This document shows, piece after piece, positions 43,711-63,946 of a stretch of 64,000 bases of DNA (the first letter of the stretch is position 1; every line of letters begins with the position of its first letter). The position numbers and the translations under genes were made by a program. The notes beneath the pieces are model-generated. The model ran no database searches. It saw only the letters and a list, made by a program, of their open reading frames with translations, and was not told the DNA's origin. Source of the DNA: an uncultured Nitrospiraceae bacterium (GTDB lineage: Bacteria; Nitrospirota; Thermodesulfovibrionia; UBA6902); contig CAYMUX010000001.1 of NCBI GenBank assembly GCA_964393845.1, positions 17,556-81,555 of the forward strand. Direction: 5' to 3'.

Positions 43711-44794
43711 AGATATTCAAACAGGAGATTTGAGTATGGATCGTACCGGCTTTTTTGGAAAACTTCCAACAGCATCTATACCAATCATGATCTGTTTTGC
43801 CATACCTTCTTTTTTACTCATAAGCGCTTATCTCTATATGACTGTCTTTTATCATAAGCTCTGGCTTTTTAATACCGTTGTTCATGAGAATGGAAAATAT
43901 ACACTTCTGGAGGTGATTTTTTATTTCAAACACTTCAATTGGGAGATGCCGATAAAGATTCTATATGCTGTTTTTATCGTAGGGACTTTTTATTACTACG
44001 GGAATCCTTTAGAAACTAAAAGAAAGGTTCTTGCGCGGAGTAATTCTTCAAAGTGGATTTTGATCAGTCTTGTTTCTGTCCTGACTATAATGTCCGTAAC
44101 CACTATCTCAAACGTTATTCAGGATGGTTTCAAGGAAACGGTTCTCGGCTTCTTCCAGTACAAGACCACTGATGCAAGGCCCCCTGAATTCGGTTCTCAC
44201 TGGAGGAATCATTTCCTCAGCAATATTGTCCTTTTTTCAGTCACGGCTGTTGTTATAATGCTTTACCGGTTGATATTTTGTAACGGGATGTGGGAGAGGA
44301 GGAAATTTTATTATCTTCTCCCGTTCTCGATTGCGTTATTTGTCTGCCTTACTTTTATTTACGGATTTACCATGGACCCATTTATTAATCCCAGCTACCT
44401 TGGACATCAATTAAGGGAGATATTCGGGACCGACCTGCCGATCACTATGCTTCTGGCAACAGGACTTTTAATATATATGGAGGGAAAGTTTGATTCGAGA
44501 AAAGAGATTAATGAAATAATGAAGAAAGAAAAGGGCATAATAATCCGGCATCTTTCTGTCCTTATTATTCCGGCGGTTCTGCCGACGGTTTATTTGATTT
44601 TGAAGGTATTATCTCTTGATGTGTCGGGTGAAATAGCAAATATCGGAAGAACTGCAAACTGGTCAGTCCTTGATCTGTTTGCCTGGCACTTTTTTGAACA
44701 TTCACTTGATTATATCCTGGTATGTTCTCTTGTATGTTTTCTCTATCTACTGACTTTAAAGAAGGAATTGAGGCGGACAATAATTGAAAAATAA
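43700..44794 (+). CDS. Hypothetical polytopic membrane protein
   Basis: About 8 hydrophobic segments. No recognised catalytic motif. Start uncertain (an alternative ATG lies at 43736). Confidence 0.45.
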   Translation: MRNRDIQTGDLSMDRTGFFGKLPTASIPIMICFAIPSFLLISAYLYMTVFYHKLWLFNTVVHENGKYTLLEVIFYFKHFNWEMPIKILYAVFIVGTFYYYGNPLETKRKVLARSNSSKWILISLVSVLTIMSVTTISNVIQDGFKETVLGFFQYKTTDARPPEFGSHWRNHFLSNIVLFSVTAVVIMLYRLIFCNGMWERRKFYYLLPFSIALFVCLTFIYGFTMDPFINPSYLGHQLREIFGTDLPITMLLATGLLIYMEGKFDSRKEINEIMKKEKGIIIRHLSVLIIPAVLPTVYLILKVLSLDVSGEIANIGRTANWSVLDLFAWHFFEHSLDYILVCSLVCFLYLLTLKKELRRTIIEK

Positions 44795-45716
44795 CCTGGT
44801 AACGATCTTAAAAGTCCTCGTATCCGGTGTCCTTCTATACCTGATTTCTAAAGAAATTGACTGGAGCCAGTTAATCGTTTCCATAAAGCAGGGACGATTC
44901 ATTTATCTGTTTATCGGGATAATTTTAGGATGCGGATTTAACGTGGTAAAATTTATCAAGTGGCATTATCTGATAAGGACAGGAGACCATAATTATTCAT
45001 TTCTAGATGGAGTAAAATCTTACATGATCGGCAATAGCCTGGGCTTGATCACGCCTATGCGCGCCGGCGACCTCGGCAGGGCCCTGTATTTTCATGTGGA
45101 CGACCGTCCCAGGATCATAGGGCTTACGGTCATGGACAGATTTACCGAGCTTGTTGCTGTTCTGGCTCTCTCTATCGGAGGATGTTTTGTCCTTCTGAAT
45201 AAAGGAGTGGGAATGATCGTCGTATCGCTTGCCTTCTTTGGTATTTTATCGCTTTATGCTGCCGGGTTCCTCCATGGGATAGTTAAAAGAATTATTCCGG
45301 ATGGAAGGATTGGCGGGAAAATAATAAAATTGATGGATATCTTAAGATTACTGGACAAAAATACTGTATCTATTGTTCTGCTACTTTCATTTGTCGCATT
45401 TGTGTTGTGTATTATACAGTTCTACTTTCTCATAATTGCATTCGAGAAAATATCATTGTCATCCGTGTTTCTGGCTACCCCATTAGTGACACTCTCTTCG
45501 ATACTCCCTGTGAGTATTATGGGGCTTGGGGTCCGGGAAGGAATTTCAATTGTCCTTCTTGCAAAATTCAATATATCTGCTGCAACGGCTGTCTCCGCGG
45601 CTTTTCTTTTTTTCCTGATAAATAATGTTTCAATAAGCGGTATTGGAATTTATTATCTGTCAAAGGTTAGAATAAAAACTCAAACTCAAGAGGCAAACTG
45701 TGAATTTAAGATTTAA
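44784..45716 (+). CDS. Flippase-like / lysylphosphatidylglycerol-synthase-TM-region family membrane protein
   Basis: LVSGVLLYLISKEIDW ... NSLGLITPMRAGDLGRALYF, typical of the PF03706-type flippase-like domain. About 8 TM helices. Confidence 0.55.
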   Translation: MKNNLVTILKVLVSGVLLYLISKEIDWSQLIVSIKQGRFIYLFIGIILGCGFNVVKFIKWHYLIRTGDHNYSFLDGVKSYMIGNSLGLITPMRAGDLGRALYFHVDDRPRIIGLTVMDRFTELVAVLALSIGGCFVLLNKGVGMIVVSLAFFGILSLYAAGFLHGIVKRIIPDGRIGGKIIKLMDILRLLDKNTVSIVLLLSFVAFVLCIIQFYFLIIAFEKISLSSVFLATPLVTLSSILPVSIMGLGVREGISIVLLAKFNISAATAVSAAFLFFLINNVSISGIGIYYLSKVRIKTQTQEANCEFKI

Positions 45717-49970: not shown

Positions 49971-50795
49971 ATGGCACTTATTTTTAATATTATTAACGGT
50001 ATCTTCAGAGTACTGTTCTATCCCTTCGAGAATTTAAATCCGGCATGGGGAATGATATGGATATCTTCAGTGGCCGGTGTCCTAATGCTGATAATTTTCC
50101 GTTTTACATCAAACCAGGAGGGGATCAAAAAGTCGAAAGCAAAAGTAAGCGCCTATATACTTGAGATGCGGCTGTTCAACCATGATCTCGGGAAGATGCT
50201 TGCATCCCTTGGAAGGACCTTATGGGCAAACATGGTGTATCTTCGTTTCATGCTTGTCCCTCTCGGCTTTATTATTATTCCTGTGTTGATAGTTTTAATC
50301 CAAACAAGTTACCGATATGAAAACCGTCCTTTGCAGCCTGGTGAAGCGGTAATAGTCAAGGCCATATTGAAAAAGGATTTTTCCGTTGTCGATACCCCTG
50401 TAGAGTTAAAGGCCCCGGACGGGGTCGTTGTCGAGACGGGCGCATTAAGGATCGCATCTCTGAATGAAGTAGACTGGCGTATAAGTTCTCAGAAAGCAGG
50501 GAATTACGAACTTATCTTTCATGTAAATGGTAAGAAATACAGCAAGAGTCTTCATGCAGAAGAGGGACTGCCCGTTCTCAGTATAGAGAGGGCAGGTTCA
50601 TCATTTGCTTCACTGCTTTTAAATCATTCCGAACCGAGGCTTCAGGATGACTCTCCTTTTATTTCTTTACATGTTTCATATCCTGACAGGGCGTTAAAGA
50701 TAATAGGATTTGAGCTCCATTGGATTATCTGGTTTTGTATCTTCTCGGTAATTTTCAGTTTTGCCTTTAAAGGTATTTTCAAGGTAGAACTGTAA
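49971..50795 (+). CDS. Hypothetical membrane protein
   Basis: 3-4 hydrophobic segments and a soluble domain of about 120 aa. No recognisable motif. Confidence 0.45.
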   Translation: MALIFNIINGIFRVLFYPFENLNPAWGMIWISSVAGVLMLIIFRFTSNQEGIKKSKAKVSAYILEMRLFNHDLGKMLASLGRTLWANMVYLRFMLVPLGFIIIPVLIVLIQTSYRYENRPLQPGEAVIVKAILKKDFSVVDTPVELKAPDGVVVETGALRIASLNEVDWRISSQKAGNYELIFHVNGKKYSKSLHAEEGLPVLSIERAGSSFASLLLNHSEPRLQDDSPFISLHVSYPDRALKIIGFELHWIIWFCIFSVIFSFAFKGIFKVEL

Positions 50796-52810: not shown

Positions 52811-54448
52811 ATGCTCAATTCTGAACAGACAAATATGAATTTGAAATATCATATGCTTTTTGCCTTCATATTAATATCGGCGGTTGCATTGAGGATTATT
52901 TATTACATGGGGCCCTCCGGTGCCGACGATATGATCTACTTTTCCGTTGTGGAGAAATTATTATCAAATCAGGATGTAGGGACAGCCATAAGCTCGTCAA
53001 CGCATTGGGGTGTAAGGCTTGGCATGGTCCTGCCTGTCTGGGCGGCTATGAAGGTATTCGGCATTTCGGAGTTTTCATCATATTTATTCCCGCTGATTAC
53101 GTCGGCAGGCATATTGGTTTTTGTTTACATTGCAGGTTTGAGACTATTCAATCTTCCGGTGGCACTGTTGTCTTCACTGACTTTTGCCCTGCTGCCGCAA
53201 GATATATATTTGTCTACCGTTATGTATCCGGACGGGCCTGTCGTTCTTTTCAGTGCACTGTTTATTTACTTGTTCTATAAATTGTCGGGAAATAAAGAAG
53301 CAGATGTCAAACAATCAATAATTGCGGGGGTTATTCTCGGTCTTGCTTATTTCATTCGTGAAACTGCTTTGATATTACTGATTACAATACCGATACTTTT
53401 TTTCCATGCGCCGAACAAGAAGCATTTTTTCAGGACAGCGTTTTTTATTTTAACAGGTCTGTTGATTGCAATTGCTTTTGAGATGCTTGTTTTCTGGTTG
53501 CTGACCGGTGATCCCCTTACCAGGTGGGAAATCCTCCTGGGCAAAACAAAAGTCCTTGAACCGCGAGCGTTTACTGTTTACAGTCATGGCAATGTAAAGT
53601 CCGGAAGTTTGATAAGTAAATATTTGTTCGATCCGTTCTTTGTGATCTTCGCTACTCACTGGATATCTCCTCTGATGGTTATAGTAGCGGCTGGAGTTGT
53701 TATTCTACAGATGACCCGAAAAGAGAATTACAAGTTCTTCTCTTTGAAGAAAGGTCATTTTTTATGGCTGTTTATTTTAACGTTTATTACATTGGCTTTT
53801 TATTCTTTCGGGCCTATATATGGTTTTGCCGTGCCGTTAAAAAGGGACGTAAGATATTACCATACCATAACTCCACTGGCATCCTTGCTGTCGGGGGTTA
53901 TTGTCTATGAATTCCTGGTCCAAAAAGGCGTCAAGAGACTTATAGGTTATTCAATGATACTCTTTTATATCCTTGCATCTTCCATTTGTTTAGGGAGCAT
54001 AGTAAACAAGAATGTTCATGGCCTGGACCTGATTGAGGAATTTATTTCCCGAAATCCTGCGGAGAATTACATTATGCCGGTTATGTTGAAAAAGACGCTT
54101 CAATTCAAGAGGGGGGCTGATTTTGAGGATAATAAGATTATTACATATGATTACGACATTCGAAAAAAAATGGAACAGCAATTAAACACCCTCTTAATGG
54201 ACGTCCGTAAAGAAGGCGCGGTCCAATATATTTTTGTCATCCCAAAGATACATGAAATCCAGACTAAATTTAGGAGACAAATTAACTGGCCTATGGAAAA
54301 AATGAGACTTGTTAATGTAATGACTACAGCTCCGGGCCTCAGCTGCCGGATTATAAAATCAAACGACGTATTATTTAAAGTAACGCCGGACGCGATCAAA
54401 TCAAAGATATGCTATACCGCCGACGTTTATGTGTACCAGCTTAGATGA
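52811..54448 (+). CDS. GT-C fold membrane glycosyltransferase (ArnT/PMT-like)
   Basis: Polytopic. An early loop GPSGADDMIYFSVVEKL. About 11 TM helices plus a C-terminal soluble domain. Confidence 0.55.
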   Translation: MLNSEQTNMNLKYHMLFAFILISAVALRIIYYMGPSGADDMIYFSVVEKLLSNQDVGTAISSSTHWGVRLGMVLPVWAAMKVFGISEFSSYLFPLITSAGILVFVYIAGLRLFNLPVALLSSLTFALLPQDIYLSTVMYPDGPVVLFSALFIYLFYKLSGNKEADVKQSIIAGVILGLAYFIRETALILLITIPILFFHAPNKKHFFRTAFFILTGLLIAIAFEMLVFWLLTGDPLTRWEILLGKTKVLEPRAFTVYSHGNVKSGSLISKYLFDPFFVIFATHWISPLMVIVAAGVVILQMTRKENYKFFSLKKGHFLWLFILTFITLAFYSFGPIYGFAVPLKRDVRYYHTITPLASLLSGVIVYEFLVQKGVKRLIGYSMILFYILASSICLGSIVNKNVHGLDLIEEFISRNPAENYIMPVMLKKTLQFKRGADFEDNKIITYDYDIRKKMEQQLNTLLMDVRKEGAVQYIFVIPKIHEIQTKFRRQINWPMEKMRLVNVMTTAPGLSCRIIKSNDVLFKVTPDAIKSKICYTADVYVYQLR

Positions 54449-55290
54449 GAGACTGGAATATCTCAAACTATCTGACAATCGATGTGGAAGATTACTATCA
54501 TGTTTCAGCGTTTGAACGGGTAGTCGGACACAAGAATTGGGACAGCTATGATTCAAGGGTAGAGGTGAATACGAAAGTCATCCTTGATATTCTCGATTCT
54601 TTTGAGGTGAAGGCCACATTTTTTGTGCTCGGCTGGATTGCCCGGAGGTTTCCGAATTTAGTTAAGGATATTTACGGCAGGGGGCATGAAATAGGCTGTC
54701 ACAGCTATTATCATCGTCTCATATACAACCTCTCTCCCGAAGAATTCATGAAGGACACAAAAAAAGCCAAGGATGTCCTGGAGCAGATTACCGGCAGACC
54801 GGTTTCAGGCTACCGGGCCCCGAGCTACTCTATCATTAAGGAGACGTTGTGGGCGCTGGATATTCTGGAAGAACTTGGGTTTAAGTATGATTCAAGCATC
54901 TTCCCGATATTTCATGACCGCTACGGGATTTTTAATTCGCCGAGATTTCAATATAAACTTCCTGACAATAACTTGATGGAATACCCCATTACTACCTCCG
55001 CTTTTTTAGGTCTGAAGATTCCGGTTTCAGGCGGCGGGTATTTTCGGCTGTTACCATACAATCTGACCAGAATGTTTTTAGGCAGGATAAATCAAAAAGA
55101 GAAGCAGCCATTTGTTTTTTACCTGCATCCCTGGGAAATAGACCCGGAGCAACCGAGGATAGACGGGTTGAGTGTCCTTTCGAAATTCAGACATTATAAT
55201 AATCTCAATAGAGCTTCAGGGCGCTTCAAGAGATTGCTTAAAGATTTTAAGTTTGCTCCCATTAATCACTCAATGAATAATTCAGTATAA
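54445..55290 (+). CDS. Polysaccharide deacetylase, PEP-CTERM-locus subfamily (NodB-like with DUF3473-type C-terminus)
   Basis: LTIDVEDYYHVSAFE ... VKATFFVLGWIA ... GHEIGCHSYYH ... GYRAPSYSI ... GGGYFRLLPY ... FYLHPWEIDPEQPR is near-collinear with the exosortase-locus deacetylase family. Confidence 0.85.
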   Translation: MRDWNISNYLTIDVEDYYHVSAFERVVGHKNWDSYDSRVEVNTKVILDILDSFEVKATFFVLGWIARRFPNLVKDIYGRGHEIGCHSYYHRLIYNLSPEEFMKDTKKAKDVLEQITGRPVSGYRAPSYSIIKETLWALDILEELGFKYDSSIFPIFHDRYGIFNSPRFQYKLPDNNLMEYPITTSAFLGLKIPVSGGGYFRLLPYNLTRMFLGRINQKEKQPFVFYLHPWEIDPEQPRIDGLSVLSKFRHYNNLNRASGRFKRLLKDFKFAPINHSMNNSV

Positions 55291-56340
55291 ATGATTATTA
55301 GATTGGCCAATGAGGAAGATAAAAATAATTGGGATGAGTATGTTTACAGCCATCCTGACGCATCCCCCTGTCATCTCTATGCATGGAGAATGACGGTTGA
55401 GAATGCTTATGGCCACAGGGCTTATTATCTGCTGGCGGAAGAGGGCGGTCAGATAACGGGTGTATTACCGTTAATTTATTTAAAACTGCCTTTTATTTCC
55501 GGACAGCTTGTTTCTTTGCCGTTTTGTGATGCAGGCGATTCATTAACCAGAGATGAATACACAAAGGAAAAACTGATACTGGAAGCAGTTTCTTTGGCCC
55601 AAAAATTGAAAGCGAAATATATTGAGCTGAGAAGCAGGGTTTATACATCGTCTTTTGAGTATTTAAAATTTCCGGTAAGCATACAATCACACAAGGTAAG
55701 AATGGTTCTGGAACTTCCTCAATCGTCCGATCTATTATGGGATAGTTTCAAATCGAAACTGCGAAGCCAACTCAGAAAGGCTGAAAAAAATAGTTTAGAA
55801 TTCAAATGGGGTTCTCTTGATAATCTTGAGGACTTCTATGTTGTATTCAGCCGGAACATGAGGGACCTCGGTTCGCCGGTCCATTCAAGGGAATGGTTTT
55901 ATGCTGTTTTGACGTATTACGGAAAAAATATTCGGATGGGTTTGATTTATTACAATAGACAGCTGATCGGAGTCGGCATCATATTAATTATGAATAATAT
56001 GATTTCAATTCCCTGGGCATCAACATTGCGGGACTGCAATAAACTTTCTCCGAATATGCTTCTTTACTGGAATTTCCTGAAATTTGCTTCCGACAGCGGT
56101 TATGCAATATTTGATTTCGGACGTTCTACCCCGAATGAGGGCACTTATCAGTTCAAGGCTCAATGGGGCGCAAAACCGGTCCCTCTCCACTGGCATTACA
56201 TATTAATAAATAATAAGGAGCTGAACTTTGATACGCACAGTTCTGCAAAAAGAGAAAAGATAGCGCGTCTGTGGCAAAGTCTCCCGCTTAAAATGGCTAA
56301 TTATATAGGGCCGGCTATAAGGAAACACATAAGTTTATGA
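55291..56340 (+). CDS. FemAB-like (GNAT-fold) PEP-CTERM system-associated protein
   Basis: Position directly after the PEP-CTERM-subfamily deacetylase. HLYAWRMTVENAYGH ... LPFCDAGD ... FDFGRS motifs of the FemAB-related family. Confidence 0.8.
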   Translation: MIIRLANEEDKNNWDEYVYSHPDASPCHLYAWRMTVENAYGHRAYYLLAEEGGQITGVLPLIYLKLPFISGQLVSLPFCDAGDSLTRDEYTKEKLILEAVSLAQKLKAKYIELRSRVYTSSFEYLKFPVSIQSHKVRMVLELPQSSDLLWDSFKSKLRSQLRKAEKNSLEFKWGSLDNLEDFYVVFSRNMRDLGSPVHSREWFYAVLTYYGKNIRMGLIYYNRQLIGVGIILIMNNMISIPWASTLRDCNKLSPNMLLYWNFLKFASDSGYAIFDFGRSTPNEGTYQFKAQWGAKPVPLHWHYILINNKELNFDTHSSAKREKIARLWQSLPLKMANYIGPAIRKHISL

Positions 56341-58769
56341 CAGCATTTCTTGAAATTGCAGCATTTTTGATGCTTTTTATCCTTTTATATATTTACATAG
56401 GATATCCCCTTCTCTTATTTCTCTTAAGATATATACTCCCTGAAAAGAAAGTCGACAAAAAGGAAATCTTTCCGGAAGTTTCAATTTTGATATCCTGTTT
56501 TAATGAAGAAGCTGTTATCCGTGAAAAACTGAAAAATGCCCTGGCAATCGAGTATCCGAAAGACAAATTCGAAATCATTGTTGTATCAGATGCTTCAACC
56601 GATCATACAGATGAGATAGTGAGGGAATATGAAAAACAGGGAGTGCGTTTAATCAGGCAAAATGAGAACCTTGGAAAGACCTCCGGATTAAATCTTGCAG
56701 TTCCTCAGGCAAAGGGTGAGATAATAGTTTTTTCTGACGCAAATGCCATGTATATGCCGGATGCCGTCAGCAAGCTGGTACGTAATTTTAATGATGAAAA
56801 AATCGGCTATGTCGTGGGAGAGGCGAGGTACAGGGATATAAATATAACTGCCGCAGCCAAGAGCGAATCTACTTATTGGAAGTTTGAGATATTGCTTAAG
56901 AAAATGGAAAGCCATATTCATTCTGTTGTAGGAGGCGACGGGGCCATATATGCTATTCGCCGCGGACTATATGAAAAGATGCTGGATACCGACATCAACG
57001 ACTTTGTTAATCCTCTTCAAATAATATTAAAGGGATACCGGGGTATTTACGAAACAGAGGCTGTCTGCTATGAAGAGTCATCGGGAGAATTTAAAAAAGA
57101 ATTCAACCGGAAGATCAGGATTATAAACCGCAGCTTCAGCGGTCTTATGCGTATGAAGGCTGTATTGAATCCAATTAAGACAGGCTTTTTCAGCCTGGGT
57201 ATTATCTCCCATAAACTTCTGCGCTGGTTTGCTCCTGTCTTTCTTATTGTTTTTGTAGTTTTCTGCCTTGCCCTCTCCTTGTTCAATGTAGTTATATTTC
57301 AGTGGAGTGCATTGCTGCTCGTGATATTTTTTATATTCTCATATATAGGTTATTTATTCTCAGAACAGGATAATGTCTGGCTGTTTTTTTATTATCCTTA
57401 TTATTTTGCACTGGTAAGCACAGCTTCTCTAATAGGCTTGCACAAGAGCTTTAAAGGGGAAATTCAAACAACATGGAGTCCGTCAAGAATTACTGTTAAA
57501 GAACATAGAGAAGACTATAGCTCTGCAAAAAGCGTAATTCATGTTTTGGCATTTATTCTAGTATGGTTTTTCGTTAGGACAATGGGAGCATTTGTTAATA
57601 ATCCTGTTCTCCCCGATAAAATATTTTTCTGGGCAATAGTAGTGTTAATCAGCTATGTTTATTTCGGGTATCCTCTGGCTTTGAAACTCCTTACTAAATA
57701 TTACCAAAAACCCGTACTGAGCGATGAAATAACGCCTGACGTATCTTTACTTGTCTGTGCATACAATGAAGAAGATGTAATCAGGGAAAAGATTGAAAAC
57801 AGTTTCGCACTTGATTATCCGCCTGACAAATTGAAAATTGTAATCGCCTCGGACGGCTCAACTGACAGAACGGACGGCATAGTGCGGCAATATGAAAGTG
57901 AAAGACTGATATTAATGAGTTATCCTGAGCGGAGAGGGAAGATGTCTGTCATCAATGACACGGTTTCAAGGCTCAATAGTGAAATTATTATCTTCTCGGA
58001 TGCCAATACTATGTATCAGAAAGACGCAGTCAGGAAACTGGTCCGAAACTTTAATGATCCGTCAGTAGGCGGAGTCAGCGCCGACGTGATCCTTCATAAT
58101 GAAGAAGCAACTTACGGCAGGTCGGAATCTCTATATTATCTTTATGAACGCTGGATCCAGAAAAAAGAATCGGAATTCGGCTCCATAATAGGCGCGGACG
58201 GCGGTATGTATGCCATCAGGAGAAGTCTGTTCGTCCCTCCCTCGAATAATATAATTCTCGATGATTTCGTAATCTCAATGAATGTGGTTCTGAGCGGACA
58301 TCGGCTGGTTTATGAGAAGGAGGCCATCGGACATGAGAGAAGCTCAAGCTCGTCAAAAACGGAATTTTTGCGCAAATCAAGGGTCATTGCAGGGGCCATT
58401 CAATCGGTCATGCAGAAAGAAGGGGTTCCATCGATTAAACATAAGGGCGTTTTTTTCTGTTATGTTTCTCATAAACATCTCCGCTGGATGATCCCGATAA
58501 TCCTCATATTCTTATATCTTGTAAATCTTCGCCTGTGTTATGTATCAGGAGAATTTATCTACCTGGCGTCATTTTCAGTGCAGACGTTATTTTATCTGTT
58601 GGCAGTCTTAGATATGTTTATTTCAAAAAAATATAAATTTAGGTTAACCTCGATCCCGTTCTATTTCTGCATGGTTAATACTGCAGCACTATACGGGATT
58701 TATAAGGGATTATTTAAGAAGCAGCCTGTCAAGTGGCGGAAATTCAGCCGGGGAATGGAAACGGCTTGA
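56337..58769 (+). CDS. Fused tandem GT2 synthase (two complete TM-GT2-TM modules in one 810-aa polypeptide)
   Basis: Module 1: GYPLLLFLL ... VSILISCFNEE ... IIVVSDASTDHT ... IVFSDANAMY. Module 2: GYPLALKLL ... VSLLVCAYNEE ... IVIASDGSTDRT ... IIFSDANTMY. Each module is followed by TM helices. Confidence 0.75.
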   Translation: MTAFLEIAAFLMLFILLYIYIGYPLLLFLLRYILPEKKVDKKEIFPEVSILISCFNEEAVIREKLKNALAIEYPKDKFEIIVVSDASTDHTDEIVREYEKQGVRLIRQNENLGKTSGLNLAVPQAKGEIIVFSDANAMYMPDAVSKLVRNFNDEKIGYVVGEARYRDINITAAAKSESTYWKFEILLKKMESHIHSVVGGDGAIYAIRRGLYEKMLDTDINDFVNPLQIILKGYRGIYETEAVCYEESSGEFKKEFNRKIRIINRSFSGLMRMKAVLNPIKTGFFSLGIISHKLLRWFAPVFLIVFVVFCLALSLFNVVIFQWSALLLVIFFIFSYIGYLFSEQDNVWLFFYYPYYFALVSTASLIGLHKSFKGEIQTTWSPSRITVKEHREDYSSAKSVIHVLAFILVWFFVRTMGAFVNNPVLPDKIFFWAIVVLISYVYFGYPLALKLLTKYYQKPVLSDEITPDVSLLVCAYNEEDVIREKIENSFALDYPPDKLKIVIASDGSTDRTDGIVRQYESERLILMSYPERRGKMSVINDTVSRLNSEIIIFSDANTMYQKDAVRKLVRNFNDPSVGGVSADVILHNEEATYGRSESLYYLYERWIQKKESEFGSIIGADGGMYAIRRSLFVPPSNNIILDDFVISMNVVLSGHRLVYEKEAIGHERSSSSSKTEFLRKSRVIAGAIQSVMQKEGVPSIKHKGVFFCYVSHKHLRWMIPIILIFLYLVNLRLCYVSGEFIYLASFSVQTLFYLLAVLDMFISKKYKFRLTSIPFYFCMVNTAALYGIYKGLFKKQPVKWRKFSRGMETA

Positions 58770-58790: not shown

Positions 58791-59768
58791 TTGTTGGCTG
58801 ACAGAGTCTGGATAAGCTGGAACGAGCAGAGGCGCAATGCAGGATTAGCTGCAGCAGTCAATGCTAAATTATATATGACTGACAGGGATTCCCCAAGATG
58901 GAGGCGTCTTATAACGGAATTCAATGAGTCCCGGAAAATTATAAAAAGGGATAAACCATCGATTTGTTTTACAATGAATCCGTCGATATTCTCAAGCTGG
59001 TGGTTGTCGCTACTCGCTAAAGTCTACCGGTTTCGTCTGGTCACAGACCTCCATACTCCTAATATAGAGCTCAAGGGCGTCAAAAAAAAAATATTTCAGG
59101 TGTTTTTCAATTCAGGGATTAGAAACTCAGATGTAGTTATTGTAACTAATGACGTGTACCGGCAATCCATTTTACCTCTTAATCCAAACATCGTCATTAT
59201 CCCGGACCCTCTGCCGGTATTGCATATGTCACAGAAAGATGCCGGTAATAAATATCGCAGGAAAGACAAAAAAATGCAGATTCTTTTCATATGTTCTTTT
59301 GATCCGGATGAACCGGTCAATGAAGTCCTGGCTATTGATCCTGAAATAGATGATTTTGAGATATTGGTGACAGGAAACTGGAAGAAGATGTTTGCGGTTA
59401 TCCCTGTTGCGAAGAATATCCATTTCATGGGCTTTGTTCCTAAAGATGAATATGATAAGCTGCTTTTTTCCGTTGACGGCATTATGGTATTAACCGGTGG
59501 AGAAGGCTGCCTCTGCTGCGGAGCTTATGAAGCCTTTTCTGCAGGGAAACCGGTAATTTTATCGCTGACTAAAACCCTGCAGGGATTTTTCGGGGATGCT
59601 CCGATTTATGCAAAAAACTCTTCGGAATCAATTTTATCCGCACTGAAGAAACTTAAAGATGAAAAAGAAGAAAGAGCAAAGATGGTCATAAGAGAACGCG
59701 ATGTGCTGAATATTAAATTTAAGAAAGGCATTGCGGATCTTGAGAAAGCGCTTGCAGGGATTGCATGA
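58791..59768 (+). CDS. Short GT-B glycosyltransferase (GT4/GT1-like C-terminal domain)
   Basis: GEGCLCCGAYEAFSAGKPVILS matches the GT4 C-terminal nucleotide-sugar-binding helix. Start uncertain (TTG 58791 or ATG 58875). Confidence 0.5.
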   Translation: MLADRVWISWNEQRRNAGLAAAVNAKLYMTDRDSPRWRRLITEFNESRKIIKRDKPSICFTMNPSIFSSWWLSLLAKVYRFRLVTDLHTPNIELKGVKKKIFQVFFNSGIRNSDVVIVTNDVYRQSILPLNPNIVIIPDPLPVLHMSQKDAGNKYRRKDKKMQILFICSFDPDEPVNEVLAIDPEIDDFEILVTGNWKKMFAVIPVAKNIHFMGFVPKDEYDKLLFSVDGIMVLTGGEGCLCCGAYEAFSAGKPVILSLTKTLQGFFGDAPIYAKNSSESILSALKKLKDEKEERAKMVIRERDVLNIKFKKGIADLEKALAGIA

Positions 59769-60712
59769 GAGGTAACGATTTATATCTCATTGTGAGTATT
59801 GATGTTGAAGAGGACATGCCTGACTGGAAGATAGAGCCCGCCACTACGATCCGCAATCTCGAAGGCATACCACGTCTTCAGGAATTATTTGAGAAGTATA
59901 ATATACGTCCGACTTATTTACTGAATTATGCCTTTGCCTCCAATGAAAAAGCCGTTAAATATTTTAACGGCATCAGCAATAAGTGTGAGATCGGAGCTCA
60001 TATGCACCCGTGGAATACCCCGCCTTTAACTGCGGAAGAATCGACTAAGAACGATTACCCGAGTAATTTGCCGTATGAAAGGCAATATGAAAAGATCAAA
60101 ACGGTGACAGATGAATTGACAAAAGCCTTCAAAAAGTCTCCAACTTCTTACCGCGCCGGCAGATTTGGCTTTAATGATGACACGAAGGACATGCTTATTC
60201 GTCTGGGATATCTTGTGGATTCCAGTATTTCCCCTATGGTTTCGTGGAAAAAGGATAAGGGCCCTTCCTTCCTTAATTACAGGGCAAAACCGTTTTGGAT
60301 GGGTAATTCAGGATCTAAAATATTGGAAGTGCCTGTGACCATAGGGCTGAGCAGGAACCTTCCCGGATTACTTGAAAAGATATATTTACGTCTTCCGAGA
60401 GTTACCAGGATACGGGGTCTTTTGAGTAAAGATCACCTGAATTTATTGGACCTTTTCTGGCTTTATCCGGCTCTTTTTTCAGAAAAGGACATGATAGCGC
60501 TCGTAGATGTAATGATAAAAAAACCGGTAAATGTGTTTAACGTTTTTTTTCATTCAAGCGAGATAAAGACAGGAGAATCCATTTATACCAGGACAGAGAA
60601 TGAGTTGAAGGAATACTATAGACGTCTTGATTTATTTTTTGATTATGCCGTTAATGAGAAAGAGATGAAAAGCATCACTTTATCCGAATACAGAAATCAT
60701 CATGTTGAATAG
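59765..60712 (+). CDS. Polysaccharide deacetylase-like / WalW-like beta-alpha-barrel protein
   Basis: LIVSIDVEEDMPDW ... CEIGAHMHPWNTPP, reminiscent of divergent NodB-fold deacetylases. Confidence 0.5.
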   Translation: MRGNDLYLIVSIDVEEDMPDWKIEPATTIRNLEGIPRLQELFEKYNIRPTYLLNYAFASNEKAVKYFNGISNKCEIGAHMHPWNTPPLTAEESTKNDYPSNLPYERQYEKIKTVTDELTKAFKKSPTSYRAGRFGFNDDTKDMLIRLGYLVDSSISPMVSWKKDKGPSFLNYRAKPFWMGNSGSKILEVPVTIGLSRNLPGLLEKIYLRLPRVTRIRGLLSKDHLNLLDLFWLYPALFSEKDMIALVDVMIKKPVNVFNVFFHSSEIKTGESIYTRTENELKEYYRRLDLFFDYAVNEKEMKSITLSEYRNHHVE

Positions 60713-60742: not shown

Positions 60743-62425
60743 ATGAATATATTGGGAATATCGGCCCTGGATACGGATTGCACAGCGGCTTTAATTCAGG
60801 GAGATAAAGTAACTTTTAGCGCGGGTGAGGAAAGGTTTTCGAGGATCAAGCAGCACGCAGGCTTTCCGCACAAGAGCATAGAATTCATTTTGAACAGGTC
60901 CGGCCTTGGTCCTGAGGACATCGATATTGTCGCATATCCTTTTTTCCCCTGGTATAAGGAAGCGTTTCTGATATCTAAAGGGTATATCCAGAACAACCTT
61001 TTCAATATCTTTAAGCACGATGATCTGAAATCAAAGTTCTATCATTTTGCTTATTATACGAGGTTTTGCAAGCAAGCATTTCTGGACCACAGGAAATTCC
61101 ATATGGACCTCACTCAAAGCCTTCAGAGGTTAGGCTTGGGGAATAAACTTAGAAGAGTTGAGCACCATCTTTCTCACGCCGCATCTGCTTTCTATACTTC
61201 AGGATTTAACGAGGCGCTTATTGTAACCTTTGACGCGTATGGGAGCGAGCTGGCGGGCAGTATCAGCCTTGGCTCGCCTGAAGGTATAAAGAGGGTATTG
61301 GATATAAAGTACCCTCATTCTCTTGGTCTGTTCTATTCCCAGGTAACTGAGGCATTGGGTTTTACTCCGACAAGACATGAGGGTAAGATAGTCGGTCTCG
61401 CCTCTTACGGAAACCCCTCTGTCCTGTTTGATGATGTTTATAAGCGGTTTAACGGCGCTGGCTCATCTTTTTCATATATTTCCGGACTCAACATGAAATT
61501 CTGCAGGCAGTTGGCAAAGAAGTATTCAAGAGAAGATGTTGCTGCCGCATATCAGGCAGTATTGGAGAGGGTAGTAGTGGACATGGTCTCCTCATATTTA
61601 AAGAAATACGGACAAAAGAATGTTGTCCTGGCTGGCGGAGTAACGGCCAATGTAAAACTCAATCAGAGAGTTTTTGAAATAGACGGGGTGGAGAATATAT
61701 TTATATATCCCAATATGGGTGACGGTGGCACTGGCGCAGGAGCAGCGCTGTATTGTGCTTCAGAATTGAACGAAAAGATTATACCGTATGAGCTTGAAAA
61801 TGTTTATTTTGGCCCTTCTTTCTCGGATGAGGAAATCAAAGCCGCGCTTGATAAGGAAAACCTGCGATATTCATTCTCCAGAGAGATTGAAAAAGAGACC
61901 GCGATTCTGATATCACAGGGGAAAGTCGTAGCGAGATTTAACGGAGCCATGGAATACGGACCGAGGGCATTGGGGAACAGATCGGTTTTGTATCACGCGA
62001 AAGACCCCGCTGTTAATGACTGGCTGAATAAGAGGCTTGGACGCACTGAATTCATGCCTTTTGCGCCGGCAACGCTTTATGAATTCCGGGAGCAGTGCTA
62101 CAAAAACATTCAGGGAGCGGAACATGCCGCTACATTCATGACTATCACGTTTGACTGTACTGACTTCATGAAGAAGGTTTCGCCTGCCGCGGTACATGTT
62201 GACGGGACTGCCAGACCCCAACTGGTGCGAAGAGACATAAATTCCAGCTATTACGACATTATCAGTGAATACCACAAATTGACCGGAATACCCAGCGTTA
62301 TCAACACTAGTTTCAATATGCATGAGGAGCCGATTGTCTGCACTCCGTATGATGCCATTAGGGCATTCAAACTGGGCAAGCTGGATTATCTGGCAATTGG
62401 CAGTTACATGGTCAAAGGCGAATAA
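60743..62425 (+). CDS. NodU/CmcH-family carbamoyltransferase
   Basis: MNILGISALDTDCTAALIQGDKVTFSAGEERFSRIKQHAGFP (ASKHA-like N-terminal domain) and the C-terminal YrdC/Kae1-like region of O-carbamoyltransferases. Confidence 0.85.
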   Translation: MNILGISALDTDCTAALIQGDKVTFSAGEERFSRIKQHAGFPHKSIEFILNRSGLGPEDIDIVAYPFFPWYKEAFLISKGYIQNNLFNIFKHDDLKSKFYHFAYYTRFCKQAFLDHRKFHMDLTQSLQRLGLGNKLRRVEHHLSHAASAFYTSGFNEALIVTFDAYGSELAGSISLGSPEGIKRVLDIKYPHSLGLFYSQVTEALGFTPTRHEGKIVGLASYGNPSVLFDDVYKRFNGAGSSFSYISGLNMKFCRQLAKKYSREDVAAAYQAVLERVVVDMVSSYLKKYGQKNVVLAGGVTANVKLNQRVFEIDGVENIFIYPNMGDGGTGAGAALYCASELNEKIIPYELENVYFGPSFSDEEIKAALDKENLRYSFSREIEKETAILISQGKVVARFNGAMEYGPRALGNRSVLYHAKDPAVNDWLNKRLGRTEFMPFAPATLYEFREQCYKNIQGAEHAATFMTITFDCTDFMKKVSPAAVHVDGTARPQLVRRDINSSYYDIISEYHKLTGIPSVINTSFNMHEEPIVCTPYDAIRAFKLGKLDYLAIGSYMVKGE

Positions 62426-62455: not shown

Positions 62456-63946
62456 TTGAGCAGATTGCAGGATATAGGAAGTAAAACCAAAGACAGCCTC
62501 ATATGGAATACTTCTCTGAAACTTGGCTTTCAGGTCTTCAGGTTTGCAATCTCGATCGTAATTGCGCGCATACTCGATCCTAGGGATTTCGGCATAATGG
62601 GAATCGCATCCATGATCATATTATATTCCGATAACCTCACGAGTCTCGGTCTGAACCGGTCATTGATCCGCAATAAAGAGATCAGCGATATGCACGTCAA
62701 TACGGTTTTCACCATCAATTTCAGTATATCCCTGCTGTTCACCAGCATAATTGTGATATTTTCACAGCGCATTGCAGACTTCTTCAATATGCCGGAATTG
62801 AGAAGTGTGATGTTATCTTTATCATGCATATTCATTATAAGCACTTTCTACCAGATACCACTGACCCTAATGAGAAGGCAACTCGATTTCAGGATCGTCG
62901 CTCTGGCCGAACTTTACCGCGGTATAGCGCAGTCGTTGATAACTTTAATTTTAGCTGTGCAGGGACTGAAATACTGGTCTCTCGTGAGCGGCTTTATTTC
63001 ATCCTATATTCTCGCCCTCATTTATGTTCTTATTAAAGTGAAATGGAAGCCGGAGTTCGGCTTTAAGAAAGCTGCCCTGAAAGACGTTTTCAGTTTTGGC
63101 ATATGGAATTTCATGAGGGTACAGATTTCCCAGGTCAATGAATTCGCCGACAAGTTTATAATCGGCAAATTTCTTGGCGCGGACCTCCTGGGTTTTTATG
63201 ACAAGGCTTATTCGACTGTTTCAATGCAGAAAGGTAGTTTTACCGCTCAGATCAGTTCGGTAATGTTCTCTTCTTTCAGCAGGCTCCAGTCCGAAACTGG
63301 CGAGGTGATAAGAAAATATCTTAAAAAGACCCTTTCAGTGACGTCGCTAATAACGTTTCCGCTCAATATCTGTCTGTTTGCTTTAGGAGAGCATTTTGTA
63401 ACACTGCTGCTTGGACCTAAATGGGAGCCCATGATACCCGTGCTGAGAGTCATGTCGATAGCCTATATTTTTTATACTATAAGCGACATGTGTTCAAATA
63501 TTAACATATGCATGGGGAGTTATGTGAAGCAAACTGTGCGGGAAGGATGCTGTAATATCATTTTGGTAATCCTTAGTCTGGTTGCGGTCAATTACGGTAT
63601 TGAATACGTTGCATTTACGGTCCTGGGCATTTACGCTCTGATCTTTTTCATGACCTTTCAACTCACGAAAGAAGTGATAGAGATGACATGGAAAGATCTG
63701 GTGGAAAGCCTTATGCCTGCCTCGATCGGATCGGTCCTGATGCTGGCCGTTATCAGTATATTAAAAAGATATATAATTCAAGAAACTAATTTAGCTAATT
63801 TTGTAATGTTGCTTGTATCAGGGGGGAGTATTTACGGTGTTGCTGTTCTTTTCCCCAGGTATCCATTGATTGAGGAATACAGGTATTCCATGATTTCCCA
63901 TGTGAAAAATATATTCAGCAAAGGTTCAGCGCTGTCCAAGGATTAG
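62456..63946 (+). CDS. Wzx-like oligosaccharide flippase (second MOP-family transporter)
   Basis: About 12 TM helices. LIWNTSLKLGFQVFRFAISIVIARIL N-terminus typical of Polysacc_synt proteins. TTG start. Confidence 0.7.
   Translation: MSRLQDIGSKTKDSLIWNTSLKLGFQVFRFAISIVIARILDPRDFGIMGIASMIILYSDNLTSLGLNRSLIRNKEISDMHVNTVFTINFSISLLFTSIIVIFSQRIADFFNMPELRSVMLSLSCIFIISTFYQIPLTLMRRQLDFRIVALAELYRGIAQSLITLILAVQGLKYWSLVSGFISSYILALIYVLIKVKWKPEFGFKKAALKDVFSFGIWNFMRVQISQVNEFADKFIIGKFLGADLLGFYDKAYSTVSMQKGSFTAQISSVMFSSFSRLQSETGEVIRKYLKKTLSVTSLITFPLNICLFALGEHFVTLLLGPKWEPMIPVLRVMSIAYIFYTISDMCSNINICMGSYVKQTVREGCCNIILVILSLVAVNYGIEYVAFTVLGIYALIFFMTFQLTKEVIEMTWKDLVESLMPASIGSVLMLAVISILKRYIIQETNLANFVMLLVSGGSIYGVAVLFPRYPLIEEYRYSMISHVKNIFSKGSALSKD

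What the first reader, a model, noticed from the sequence alone, without database searches (positions are those of the whole stretch)
54445..56340. PEP-CTERM-locus marker pair (deacetylase plus FemAB-like protein) without exosortase or PEP-CTERM substrates in the window
The deacetylase (54445-55290) is collinear with the PEP-CTERM-locus subfamily of polysaccharide deacetylases. The gene immediately downstream (55291-56340) matches the FemAB-like PEP-CTERM-associated family. In characterised loci these accompany exosortase (XrtA) and EpsH-type genes. Over 64 kb here I see no exosortase-like 8-TM Cys/Arg protein and no ORF with a C-terminal PEP motif followed by a TM helix and a basic tail. Either the exosortase module lies outside the window, or this lineage has uncoupled the marker pair from exosortase. 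The LGY-tailed proteins might conceivably form an analogous substrate set.
Basis: partly seen in the sequence, partly recalled or inferred. Interest (0 to 1): 0.55.

Follow-up and report, generated by a model that had tools for sequence, protein, structure and literature searches.

The report
Sugar-amine editing gene pair, exosortase not nearby
Two adjacent genes that probably strip an acetyl group from a sugar and attach an amino acid in its place are real members of families named after the exosortase (XrtA) protein-sorting system, but having no exosortase gene nearby turns out to be common for this pair, so the finding is mostly ordinary.

Summary
ORFs 54445-55290 and 55291-56340 pass the curated cut-offs of TIGR03006 (395 bits against 276) and TIGR03019 (298 against 260). 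The 64 kb window holds no exosortase, no EpsI and no PEP-CTERM tail by Pfam, NCBIfam, a custom HMM run in six frames, or a regex.

The pair is not isolated. It is translationally coupled to an 810-aa tandem GT2 membrane synthase. Behind that come a second CE4-like gene, a carbamoyltransferase and Wzx. In syntenic relatives the run continues with WzyC, GT4, AsnB and a PcRGLX-like protein.

The FemAB-like protein models confidently (pLDDT 92) as a FemX-type tandem GNAT and keeps the catalytic Phe-Lys. The deacetylase keeps all CE4 catalytic residues. The likely mechanism is to de-N-acetylate a hexosamine and then N-aminoacylate the freed amine from aminoacyl-tRNA.

The missing exosortase is not a window-edge effect. 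Relatives show none up to 20 kb downstream, and the window shows none for 54 kb upstream. It is also unremarkable: only 17 of 38 reference loci with full flanks have an exosortase within 10 kb, and some of the others still carry PrsT or PEP-CTERM proteins.

Whether this genome lacks an exosortase altogether could not be tested. The idea that the LGY tails are sorting signals is not supported.

The parts
52811..54448 (+). GT-C (PMT_2/ArnT-like) membrane glycosyltransferase, 545 aa. It lies directly upstream, and its stop overlaps the deacetylase start (ATGA).
   Evidence: PF13231 51.9 bits. The same gene precedes the pair in the syntenic relative L002. Junction read.
54445..55290 (+). Cytoplasmic CE4 (NodB-fold) deacetylase with a DUF3473 C-terminal domain; a member of TIGR03006.
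   Evidence: TIGR03006 395 bits against cut-off 276. PF01522 + PF11959. D13/E15/D16, H86, H90, R123-A-P and H227 are invariant in 38 family members. No N-terminal hydrophobic segment. Best PDB sequence match is the CE4 enzyme 3rxz, E 7e-15.
55291..56340 (+). FemX-like tandem-GNAT transferase; a member of TIGR03019 and the predicted aminoacyl-tRNA-dependent N-aminoacyl transferase.
   Evidence: TIGR03019 297.7 bits against cut-off 260.35. AF2 model pLDDT 92.2. Foldseek top hits are FemX (6snr; 1ne9/7z6a, TM 0.70-0.75), FemA, Sbb17/Sba18 and the MprF synthase domain. F288-K289 aligns with the FemX 'FK' motif, and K289 is invariant in 25 homologues.
56337..58769 (+). Tandem (internally duplicated) membrane-embedded GT2 of the PgaC/NodC class, 810 aa. 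Its start overlaps the FemAB-like stop (ATGA).
   Evidence: Two PF00535 domains. Best NCBIfam hits are PgaC 159 bits and NodC 99 bits, both below cut-off. The halves are 39% identical, E 2e-80. It follows FemAB in W, L002, L086, L088, L089 and L068, and opens L090.
58791..59768 (+). GT4-like glycosyltransferase, 325 aa.
   Evidence: PF00534 28.4 bits. Conserved at this position in L002.
59765..60712 (+). Second, divergent CE4-like protein (the 'cluster 6' family), 315 aa, with no NCBIfam model.
   Evidence: PF01522 22.6 bits against cut-off 23.1. Homologues abut FemAB in Alteromonadales and Colwellia loci and occur in 23 loci. The L089 orthologue carries a PF01522 hit on record.
60743..62425 (+). 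Carbamoyltransferase (NodU/CmcH type), 560 aa.
   Evidence: PF02543 + PF16861. Conserved in L002 and L088.
62456..63946 (+). Wzx-type flippase, 496 aa. It is the last gene of the window; the cluster continues beyond the edge.
   Evidence: PF13440 241 bits. In syntenic L002/L087 it is followed by WzyC, GT4, hexapeptide transferase, AsnB, sulfotransferase and a PcRGLX-like protein. The GT4 orthologue P0253 lies on the window's own 100,089-bp contig.

Best explanation
The two genes are genuine members of TIGR03006 and TIGR03019. They form the translationally coupled front end of a conserved sugar-amine editing cassette inside a very large, single-strand glycan-biosynthesis operon. Proposed mechanism, on the cytoplasmic face: (1) an N-acetylhexosamine unit, on a nucleotide sugar, a lipid-linked intermediate or the nascent chain of the adjacent tandem GT2 synthase, is de-N-acetylated by the metal-dependent CE4 enzyme; (2) the freed amine is re-acylated by the FemX-like tandem GNAT, most likely with an amino acid taken from aminoacyl-tRNA; (3) the product is built into a glycan that is further decorated (second CE4-like enzyme, carbamoyltransferase), flipped by Wzx and polymerised or ligated by the WzyC protein encoded just beyond the window. 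This is the NodC/NodB/NodA logic of make, deacetylate, re-acylate, with a Fem-type donor. The exosortase is truly not part of this locus, but that is common for the pair and is not in itself evidence of uncoupling. I judge an exosortase elsewhere in the genome somewhat more likely (about 0.6) than its complete absence. Shown here: family membership, intact catalytic residues, the FemX fold, operon coupling, conserved synteny, and absence of an exosortase from the locus. Inferred: the substrate, the aminoacyl-tRNA donor, and where any exosortase is.
For: Both families pass their cut-offs. CE4 catalytic residues are invariant. The FemAB-like model has pLDDT 92, and its best structural neighbours are exclusively aminoacyl-tRNA-dependent tandem GNATs (FemX, FemA, Sbb17/Sba18 bound to an amino-sugar substrate, MprF synthase domain). 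The Phe-Lys corresponding to the catalytic Lys305 of FemX-Wv is conserved (role of Lys305 from PMC12945691). There is a precedent for a Fem-like enzyme aminoacylating an amino-sugar amine from Gly-tRNA (Orf11, cited in PMC12945691). ATGA/TAAATG junctions and no intergenic terminator. The deacetylase-FemAB-tandem GT2 order recurs in six fetched loci (W, L002, L086, L089, L068, and L088 from FemAB onward), and L090 opens with the tandem GT2; a single PgaC-like GT2 lies close by in 12 more loci. WecB (UDP-GlcNAc 2-epimerase) recurs next to the pair (Rubrivivax locus table in PMC3684757), which points to an N-acetylhexosamine substrate. Only 17 of 38 full-flank reference loci have an exosortase within 10 kb. 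Loci without one carry PrsT or a PEP-CTERM protein. L068 (a Nitrospirota MAG) has EpsI-exosortase-deacetylase-FemAB-tandem GT2-AsnB in a row.
Against: No member of TIGR03019 or TIGR03006 has been characterised biochemically as far as I could find. Fold similarity cannot fix the acyl donor: acetyl-CoA-dependent tandem GNATs also match, though less well (2wpw TM 0.57-0.62, VipF TM 0.41-0.56). The FemAB-like score clears its cut-off by only 37 bits. In the window's own clade (W, L086, L002, L004, L007, L089) none of six loci has an exosortase. In that clade the other XrtA-named families fall below cut-off: AsnB 735-740 against 817, GT4 157-234 against 409, WzyC 106-144 against 188. That would also fit a lineage without an exosortase.
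Confidence: 0.6

Rival explanations
1. True uncoupling. The Nitrospirota/Scalinduaceae-type clade that contains the window keeps the deacetylase-FemAB-tandem GT2 module and the rest of the XrtA-type accessory set but has no exosortase or PEP-CTERM proteins anywhere in the genome. The module makes a modified glycan for its own sake, not as part of protein sorting.
For: None of six clade loci in the FemAB tree has an exosortase or EpsI. About 210 kb of clade sequence (window 64 kb, L002+L087 31 kb, L004, L007, L086, L088, L089, L090) is negative in six frames. Companion families are sub-threshold for their XrtA-specific models. No PrsK/R/T, Wza, Wzc or priming phosphoglycosyltransferase was found in the window. 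No PEP-CTERM tail in any clade locus.
Against: No whole genome could be searched. Distal exosortases are routine in bona fide XrtA genomes. L068, from a Nitrospirota MAG and with the same tandem GT2 arrangement, has the exosortase adjacent. Both marker HMMs, whose names and cut-offs tie them to XrtA systems, are passed. PEP-CTERM tails are sparse even in positive loci (4 in about 1.2 Mb), so their absence is weak evidence.
Confidence: 0.3
2. The FemAB-like protein is an acyl-CoA or acyl-carrier-dependent N-acyltransferase (a GNAT, Acetyltransf_6/CelD-like) that puts a non-amino-acid acyl group on the deacetylated sugar, exactly as NodA does, and is not aminoacyl-tRNA dependent.
For: PF13480 Acetyltransf_6 is the stronger Pfam hit (53 bits, against 31 for FemAB). 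Acyl-CoA ligase-like genes recur in canonical loci (cluster 22, TIGR03098-like, 370 bits), and CapK-like ligases lie downstream in L087 and L090. Acetyl-CoA tandem GNATs appear lower in the fold hits.
Against: The eleven best structural matches are all aminoacyl-tRNA-dependent enzymes with clearly higher TM-scores (0.64-0.77, against 0.41-0.62). The Fem-type Phe-Lys motif is conserved.
Confidence: 0.25
3. The LGY-tailed sulfatase-fold proteins are substrates of an unknown sorting enzyme that replaces exosortase in this lineage.
For: Five paralogs that are only 30-37% identical overall share a near-invariant C-terminal L[KR][ST]LGY[IL][KRQ], so the tail is under its own constraint.
Against: The motif is the last eight residues. 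There is no TM helix or basic cluster after it, unlike every known sortase, exosortase or rhombosortase signal. The proteins are polytopic membrane enzymes already anchored by five N-terminal TM helices. No candidate processing enzyme is encoded in the window. No such tails occur in the 85 other loci examined.
Confidence: 0.03

Closest known systems
XrtA/PEP-CTERM 'type 1' exopolysaccharide loci (Haft et al. 2006, PMC1569441; for example the Rubrivivax/Thauera/Rhodoferax locus in PMC3684757)
   Same: It has the same TIGR03006-TIGR03019 adjacent pair. In the locus as extended by synteny, the same accessory repertoire is present: GT4s, an AsnB-type amidotransferase, a WzyC-type ligase, Wzx, a PcRGLX-like protein of about 830 aa, and a second CE4-like gene.
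   Different: There is no exosortase, EpsI, PEP-CTERM protein, PrsK/R/T, Wza, Wzc/PCP or priming phosphoglycosyltransferase in 64 kb. The companion AsnB, GT4 and WzyC proteins score below the XrtA-specific cut-offs. The pair is fused into an operon with a tandem GT2 and lies downstream of about 54 kb of GT-C and sulfatase-fold genes.
FemX/FemA/FemB and MurM peptidoglycan branch transferases
   Same: Tandem-GNAT fold (TM about 0.7) and a conserved Phe-Lys catalytic motif. The inferred donor is aminoacyl-tRNA and the acceptor is a primary amine.
   Different: Sequence identity is only 12-16%. There is no FemA-type coiled-coil insertion (349 aa, against about 400-420). The acceptor is predicted to be a de-N-acetylated sugar, not the Lys of a peptidoglycan stem peptide. 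The genomic context is glycan synthesis, not the cell wall.
Orf11/Sba18/Sbb17 of streptothricin-type pathways (Gly-tRNA-dependent aminoacylation of the amino sugar of streptothrisamine)
   Same: A Fem-like tandem GNAT that acylates an amino-sugar amine. It is a structural match (E about 1e-13, TM 0.64-0.77).
   Different: Those enzymes work on a small-molecule antibiotic, not a polysaccharide. The free amine there is biosynthetic and is not produced by a paired CE4 deacetylase.
NodC-NodB-NodA (Nod factor) and PgaC-PgaB (PNAG) systems
   Same: A membrane GT2 of the NodC/PgaC class is encoded next to a NodB-fold deacetylase. In the Nod case an N-acyltransferase then reloads the freed amine.
   Different: The transferase is Fem-type, not NodA-type. 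The GT2 is a tandem duplication and scores far below the PgaC and NodC cut-offs. The deacetylase is cytoplasmic, unlike periplasmic PgaB.

Membership tests
TIGR03006 (XrtA system polysaccharide deacetylase) | Full-length HMM score above the curated cut-off (276.2 bits) | tested here: met
   395 bits, profile positions 1-268 of 272
TIGR03006 (XrtA system polysaccharide deacetylase) | CE4 NodB domain followed by DUF3473, with catalytic Asp, His-His, Arg and His present | tested here: met
   PF01522 + PF11959. D13/D16, H86, H90, R123 and H227 are invariant in 38 sequences.
TIGR03006 (XrtA system polysaccharide deacetylase) | Occurs in a genome that encodes exosortase A and PEP-CTERM proteins | not testable with these tools
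   Neither is in the 64-kb window. The rest of the contig and genome could not be fetched.
TIGR03019 (FemAB family XrtA/PEP-CTERM system-associated protein) | Full-length HMM score above the curated cut-off (260.35 bits) | tested here: met
   297.7 bits, profile positions 2-329 of 330. The margin is modest.
TIGR03019 (FemAB family XrtA/PEP-CTERM system-associated protein) | Encoded next to the TIGR03006 deacetylase in an exopolysaccharide locus | tested here: met
   Stop and start abut (TAAATG). The locus is rich in GT2, GT4 and Wzx genes.
TIGR03019 (FemAB family XrtA/PEP-CTERM system-associated protein) | Locus or genome contains the PEP-CTERM processing determinants (exosortase) | tested here: inconclusive
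   Absent from the window and from about 210 kb of clade loci. It is also absent within 10 kb in 21 of 38 reference loci. The genome-wide status is unknown.
FemABX aminoacyl-tRNA-dependent transferases | Double-GNAT fold | tested here: met
   AF2 pLDDT 92.2. Foldseek hits FemX at E 4e-17, TM 0.69-0.75.
FemABX aminoacyl-tRNA-dependent transferases | Catalytic Lys (Lys305 of FemX-Wv) preceded by Phe | tested here: met
   F288-K289 aligns with 'FK' of S. aureus FemX. K289 is invariant and F288 is at least 90% conserved. The role of the Lys is from PMC12945691.
FemABX aminoacyl-tRNA-dependent transferases | Uses aminoacyl-tRNA as the donor | not testable with these tools
   This needs biochemistry; here it is only inferred from fold and motif.
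XrtA/PEP-CTERM protein-sorting system (as a locus) | Exosortase (PF09721/TIGR02602/TIGR03109) present | tested here: not met
   No hit in any ORF or in six frames of the window.
XrtA/PEP-CTERM protein-sorting system (as a locus) | PEP-CTERM substrate proteins present | tested here: not met
   No PF07589 or TIGR02595 hit, and no sense-strand PEP+TM+basic tail. The regex was validated on reference loci.
XrtA/PEP-CTERM protein-sorting system (as a locus) | EpsI, PrsK/PrsR/PrsT, and the Wza/Wzc/priming transferase set | tested here: not met
   None was found in the window. They were found in reference loci.

The most novel reading that the evidence does not exclude
A clade of uncultured bacteria (MAGs labelled Nitrospirota and Scalinduaceae) runs the complete XrtA-type glycan accessory module (deacetylase, FemX-like transferase, tandem GT2, second CE4, AsnB, WzyC, PcRGLX-like protein) in genomes that have no exosortase and no PEP-CTERM proteins. 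That would show that the FemAB-like/deacetylase cassette makes an N-aminoacylated glycan in its own right. It would separate glycan aminoacylation from exosortase-mediated protein anchoring, for which an aminoacylated glycan could otherwise serve as the acceptor, by analogy with sortase and the Fem-built cross-bridge.
Probability: 0.3. Interest if true: 0.45.

Novelty: new member of a known kind. Interest (0 to 1): 0.25.

Why it matters
As it stands, this is a correct annotation plus a caution. The 'XrtA/PEP-CTERM system-associated' names of TIGR03006 and TIGR03019 describe a genome-level correlation, not gene adjacency, and in more than half of the reference loci the exosortase is not within 10 kb.

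The more useful by-product is a testable chemical hypothesis for the whole, still uncharacterised, TIGR03019 family: tRNA-dependent N-aminoacylation of a de-N-acetylated hexosamine in an exopolysaccharide. If that is right, it offers a candidate acceptor for exosortase transpeptidation, parallel to sortase and the Fem-built cross-bridge. That last step is my inference only; no paper found here links the two. A lineage shown to keep the cassette without an exosortase would be a natural experiment to separate the two functions.

Tried and rejected
(1) Fetching the window's own 100,089-bp contig to read its other 36 kb failed. Four look-ups with window or window-contig proteins returned nothing, and a fifth found only a 2.9-kb Logan fragment.

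(2) I tried a contig-length fingerprint test: I searched homologues of a Nitrospirota exosortase and looked for hits on contigs of 100,089, 171,500, 2,284,559 or 170,164 bp. None appeared, but the list of 120 saturates at 51% identity or more, so the result is uninformative and I did not count it as evidence of absence.

(3) Literature searches for exosortase or PEP-CTERM in anammox bacteria or Nitrospirae, and for any paper linking exosortase with FemAB, found nothing relevant or nothing at all. The 2012 exosortase classification paper, under the id I recalled (PMC3256604), is not held.

(4) The source genome is not among the GTDB representatives; the best hit of the single genome-contig scan is 68% identical.

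(5) I considered that the unassigned multi-TM ORFs 43700-44794 and 49971-50795 might be divergent exosortases. Neither has an NCBIfam or Pfam hit or a hit to the custom HMM.

(6) I considered the WzyC, GT4 and AsnB genes of the relatives as further XrtA-system markers. All score below their curated cut-offs, so I did not count them as members.

(7) The promoter and terminator scan gave near-chance promoters and no intergenic terminators. It shows only that the genes are compatible with one operon.


Full report
OBSERVATION. Against NCBIfam, the first scores 395 bits on TIGR03006 (curated cut-off 276.2) over essentially the whole profile. The second scores 297.7 bits on TIGR03019 (cut-off 260.35), also over the whole profile. 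Pfam agrees: Polysacc_deac_1 + DUF3473 for the first, and Acetyltransf_6 + FemAB for the second. The genes are tightly packed. The upstream PMT_2 gene's stop overlaps the deacetylase start (ATGA). The deacetylase stop is followed directly by the FemAB-like start (TAAATG). The FemAB-like stop overlaps the start of the next gene (ATGA). No intergenic terminator-like site separates them.

NO EXOSORTASE OR PEP-CTERM GENES IN THE WINDOW. The window holds 47 ORFs of at least 90 aa, all on the + strand. Each was scanned with Pfam and/or NCBIfam. There is no hit to PF09721, TIGR02602, TIGR03109, TIGR04178 (exosortase), TIGR02914 (EpsI) or PF07589 (PEP-CTERM). I also built exosortase and EpsI HMMs from neighbours of homologous pairs. 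Their identity was checked first: one representative scores 304 bits on TIGR03109 (cut-off 208), another passes TIGR02602, and EpsI scores 116 bits (cut-off 43). Run against the six-frame translation of the window, these HMMs found nothing at E<=1e-3. A regex for a PEP motif + hydrophobic stretch + basic tail hit only antisense junk in the window. A stricter version recovered four convincing PEP-CTERM tails in reference loci, so the test works. The window also lacks the other hallmarks of XrtA loci: PrsK/R/T, Wza, Wzc and a priming phosphoglycosyltransferase.

WHAT SURROUNDS THE PAIR. The pair is not isolated. Directly downstream, with overlapping stop and start, is an 810-aa membrane GT2. It is an internal duplication (halves 39% identical, E 2e-80), and its best, sub-threshold, NCBIfam hits are PgaC and NodC. 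Then come a GT4-like gene, a second and divergent CE4-like gene (59765-60712; PF01522 22.6 bits against cut-off 23.1), a carbamoyltransferase and a Wzx flippase. The 54 kb upstream is a remarkable run of seven GT-C/PMT_2 enzymes, six 5-TM sulfatase-fold proteins, two phosphodiesterase-type proteins, polyprenyl-phosphate-type GT2s, B12-radical SAM enzymes, methyltransferases and another Wzx.

BEYOND THE WINDOW'S EDGE. The window comes from an NCBI contig of 100,089 bp, which the look-up tool would not return. A MAG contig, DYJL01000003.1 (171.5 kb; FemAB-like 68% identical), has the same gene order as window 44.8-64 kb. It continues past the point where the window ends with WzyC, GT4, a hexapeptide transferase, an AsnB-type amidotransferase, a sulfotransferase, an 829-aa PcRGLX-like protein, GT4, a phosphodiesterase and a CapK-like ligase. 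There is no exosortase or EpsI in six frames at E<=1. A 76%-identical orthologue of that first GT4 (P0253) lies on a 100,089-bp contig and is not in the window, so the synteny does extend past the window's right edge. The option that XrtA sits immediately outside the window is therefore unlikely on the right side, with 20 kb covered by proxy. On the left side it hardly matters, because the window itself covers 54 kb.

HOW UNUSUAL IS THIS? One scan of GTDB representative genomes with an alignment of 25 FemAB-like homologues returned 80 loci with up to 10 kb on each side. Thirty of them contain an exosortase. Of the 38 loci with full flanks, only 17 (45%) do. The loci without one include Catenovulum, Paraglaciecola and other Alteromonadaceae loci that carry PrsT at 446 bits (cut-off 312), and a Thalassotalea locus with a PEP-CTERM protein. 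Those genomes evidently have the system with the exosortase more than 10 kb away. The founding paper itself calls the deacetylase and similar families 'more weakly correlated' with homologues in PEP-CTERM-negative genomes, although it also says that within the profile they are almost invariably near the EpsH homologue (PMC1569441). So a marker pair without a neighbouring exosortase is ordinary.

THE WINDOW'S CLADE. In a neighbour-joining tree of the FemAB-like proteins, the window groups with L086 (76% identity) and DYJL. This group is sister to two Scalinduaceae loci and a 3.12-Mb contig (L089). None of these six has an exosortase in the sequence available. Two further relatives chosen through the downstream GT4 (L088, L090) are also negative. 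About 210 kb of clade sequence is negative in total. In these relatives the companion genes resemble XrtA-system families but fall below the cut-offs: AsnB 735-740 against 817, GT4 157-234 against 409, WzyC 106-144 against 188. Against reading this as a loss, L068, another MAG labelled Nitrospirota, has EpsI-exosortase-deacetylase-FemAB-tandem GT2-AsnB in one row. I could not search any whole genome, so the genome-wide question stays open. I put an exosortase elsewhere in the genome at about 0.6 and true absence at about 0.3-0.4. The taxon itself is uncertain. The DYJL MAG is titled Nitrospira japonica, but its isolate name implies about 42% GC, and the window has about 40% GC.

MECHANISM. The deacetylase has no signal peptide and keeps every CE4 catalytic position in an alignment of 38 family members: Asp13/Asp16, His86, His90, Arg123-Ala-Pro and His227. 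It should therefore be an active cytoplasmic de-N-acetylase. The FemAB-like protein has no close solved relative by sequence; the only match is S. aureus FemX at E 0.003. It does model with high confidence (pLDDT 92.2, pTM 0.89). Its best structural neighbours are all aminoacyl-tRNA-dependent tandem GNATs: FemX from S. aureus and Weissella (TM 0.69-0.75), FemA, Sbb17/Sba18 bound to the amino-sugar substrate streptothrisamine, and the MprF synthase domain. Acetyl-CoA tandem GNATs match less well. The phmmer alignment puts window F288-K289 on the FemX 'FK' motif, and K289 is invariant in 25 homologues. A 2026 review names the corresponding Lys305 as the only reactive residue in the FemX-Wv active site, and describes a Fem-like enzyme (Orf11) that glycylates an amino-sugar amine from Gly-tRNA (PMC12945691). 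WecB (UDP-GlcNAc 2-epimerase) recurs beside the pair (PMC3684757), and a PgaC/NodC-class GT2 is coupled to it in many loci. From this I infer a make, deacetylate, re-acylate cassette, as in NodC/NodB/NodA. An N-acetylhexosamine unit is de-N-acetylated, and the free amine is then aminoacylated from aminoacyl-tRNA. The identity of the sugar, the stage at which it is edited and the donor are all inferred, not shown. An acyl-CoA or acyl-ACP donor remains a real alternative, since acyl-CoA ligase-like genes recur in canonical loci and CapK-like ligases lie downstream in relatives.

LGY TAILS. The five LGY-tailed proteins each have five N-terminal TM helices and a sulfatase-fold domain. They are 30-37% identical to one another, and each ends in L[KR][ST]LGY[IL][KRQ]. 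The tail is clearly constrained, but nothing follows it, neither a TM helix nor a basic cluster. The proteins are already polytopic membrane enzymes. They do not look like substrates of a sortase-type system, and I found no candidate processing enzyme.

VERDICT. Both genes are new members of known, though biochemically uncharacterised, families. The interest is low to moderate. The main value is the mechanistic hypothesis for TIGR03019 and the identification of a clade in which genome-wide uncoupling from exosortase could be tested with a simple HMM census.

Noticed in passing
window 18438-20381, 27736-29892, 32036-33925, 34055-36172, 36228-38390 (and 38463-40526, which lacks the tail): Five paralogous proteins with five TM helices and a sulfatase fold (LtaS/EptA-like topology) are only 30-37% identical overall, yet all end in L[KR][ST]LGY[IL][KRQ]. 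A sixth paralog lacks the tail. The tail is under its own constraint but is not a tripartite sorting signal, and its role is unknown.
   Followed up: partly
window 1-64000: All 47 ORFs of at least 90 aa are on the + strand. They form one huge glycan-related supercluster: seven GT-C/PMT_2 enzymes, six sulfatase-fold and two phosphodiesterase-type membrane proteins, many GT2/GT4 enzymes, two B12-radical SAM enzymes, two Wzx flippases, YdjC and a GH30-like hydrolase. There is no Wza, Wzc or priming transferase.
   Followed up: partly
window 44784-45716; L002 1-145; L004 797-1804: A stand-alone LPG_synthase_TM protein (the flippase-type domain of MprF, PF03706) lies about 9 kb upstream of the FemAB-like gene in the window, in DYJL and in Scalindua. 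The FemAB-like fold also matches the aminoacyl-tRNA-dependent synthase domain of MprF. This could be a split MprF-like division of labour.
   Followed up: no
window 59765-60712; for example L072 8943-9947, L039 8985-9980: A divergent CE4-like family of about 315-340 aa, with no NCBIfam model, travels with the FemAB-like gene in 23 loci. In Alteromonadales and Colwellia this family, not TIGR03006, abuts FemAB, while TIGR03006 sits next to XrtA in some of them (Colwellia, L046, L060).
   Followed up: partly
window 56337-58769: The 810-aa GT2 is a head-to-tail duplication of a complete TM-GT2-TM unit (halves 39% identical, E 2e-80). The fused form is conserved in W, L002, L086, L088, L089, L090 and L068, whereas 12 other loci have a single-unit homologue.
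   Followed up: partly
L087 14365-16854; L004 18320-21013; L088 15866-18304; L090 11189-13663: A PcRGLX-like protein of about 810-900 aa, with no NCBIfam hit, co-occurs with the pair in 25 of 82 loci, across XrtA-positive Gammaproteobacteria and the window's clade alike.
   Followed up: no
L006/L002 (DYJL01000003.1): The closest long-contig relative is titled 'Nitrospira japonica isolate FI88_42_154', but the isolate name implies about 42% GC, and its FemAB-like protein groups next to Scalinduaceae. The taxon label looks unreliable, so the window's phylum is not settled.
   Followed up: no
L086 4743-5990: In the closest homologous locus (FemAB-like 76% identical), a second Acetyltransf_6 protein (415 aa) follows the tandem GT2, then a formyltransferase, DUF362 and a radical SAM/SPASM enzyme. 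This suggests that further N-acyl editing steps are swapped in and out of this cassette.
   Followed up: no
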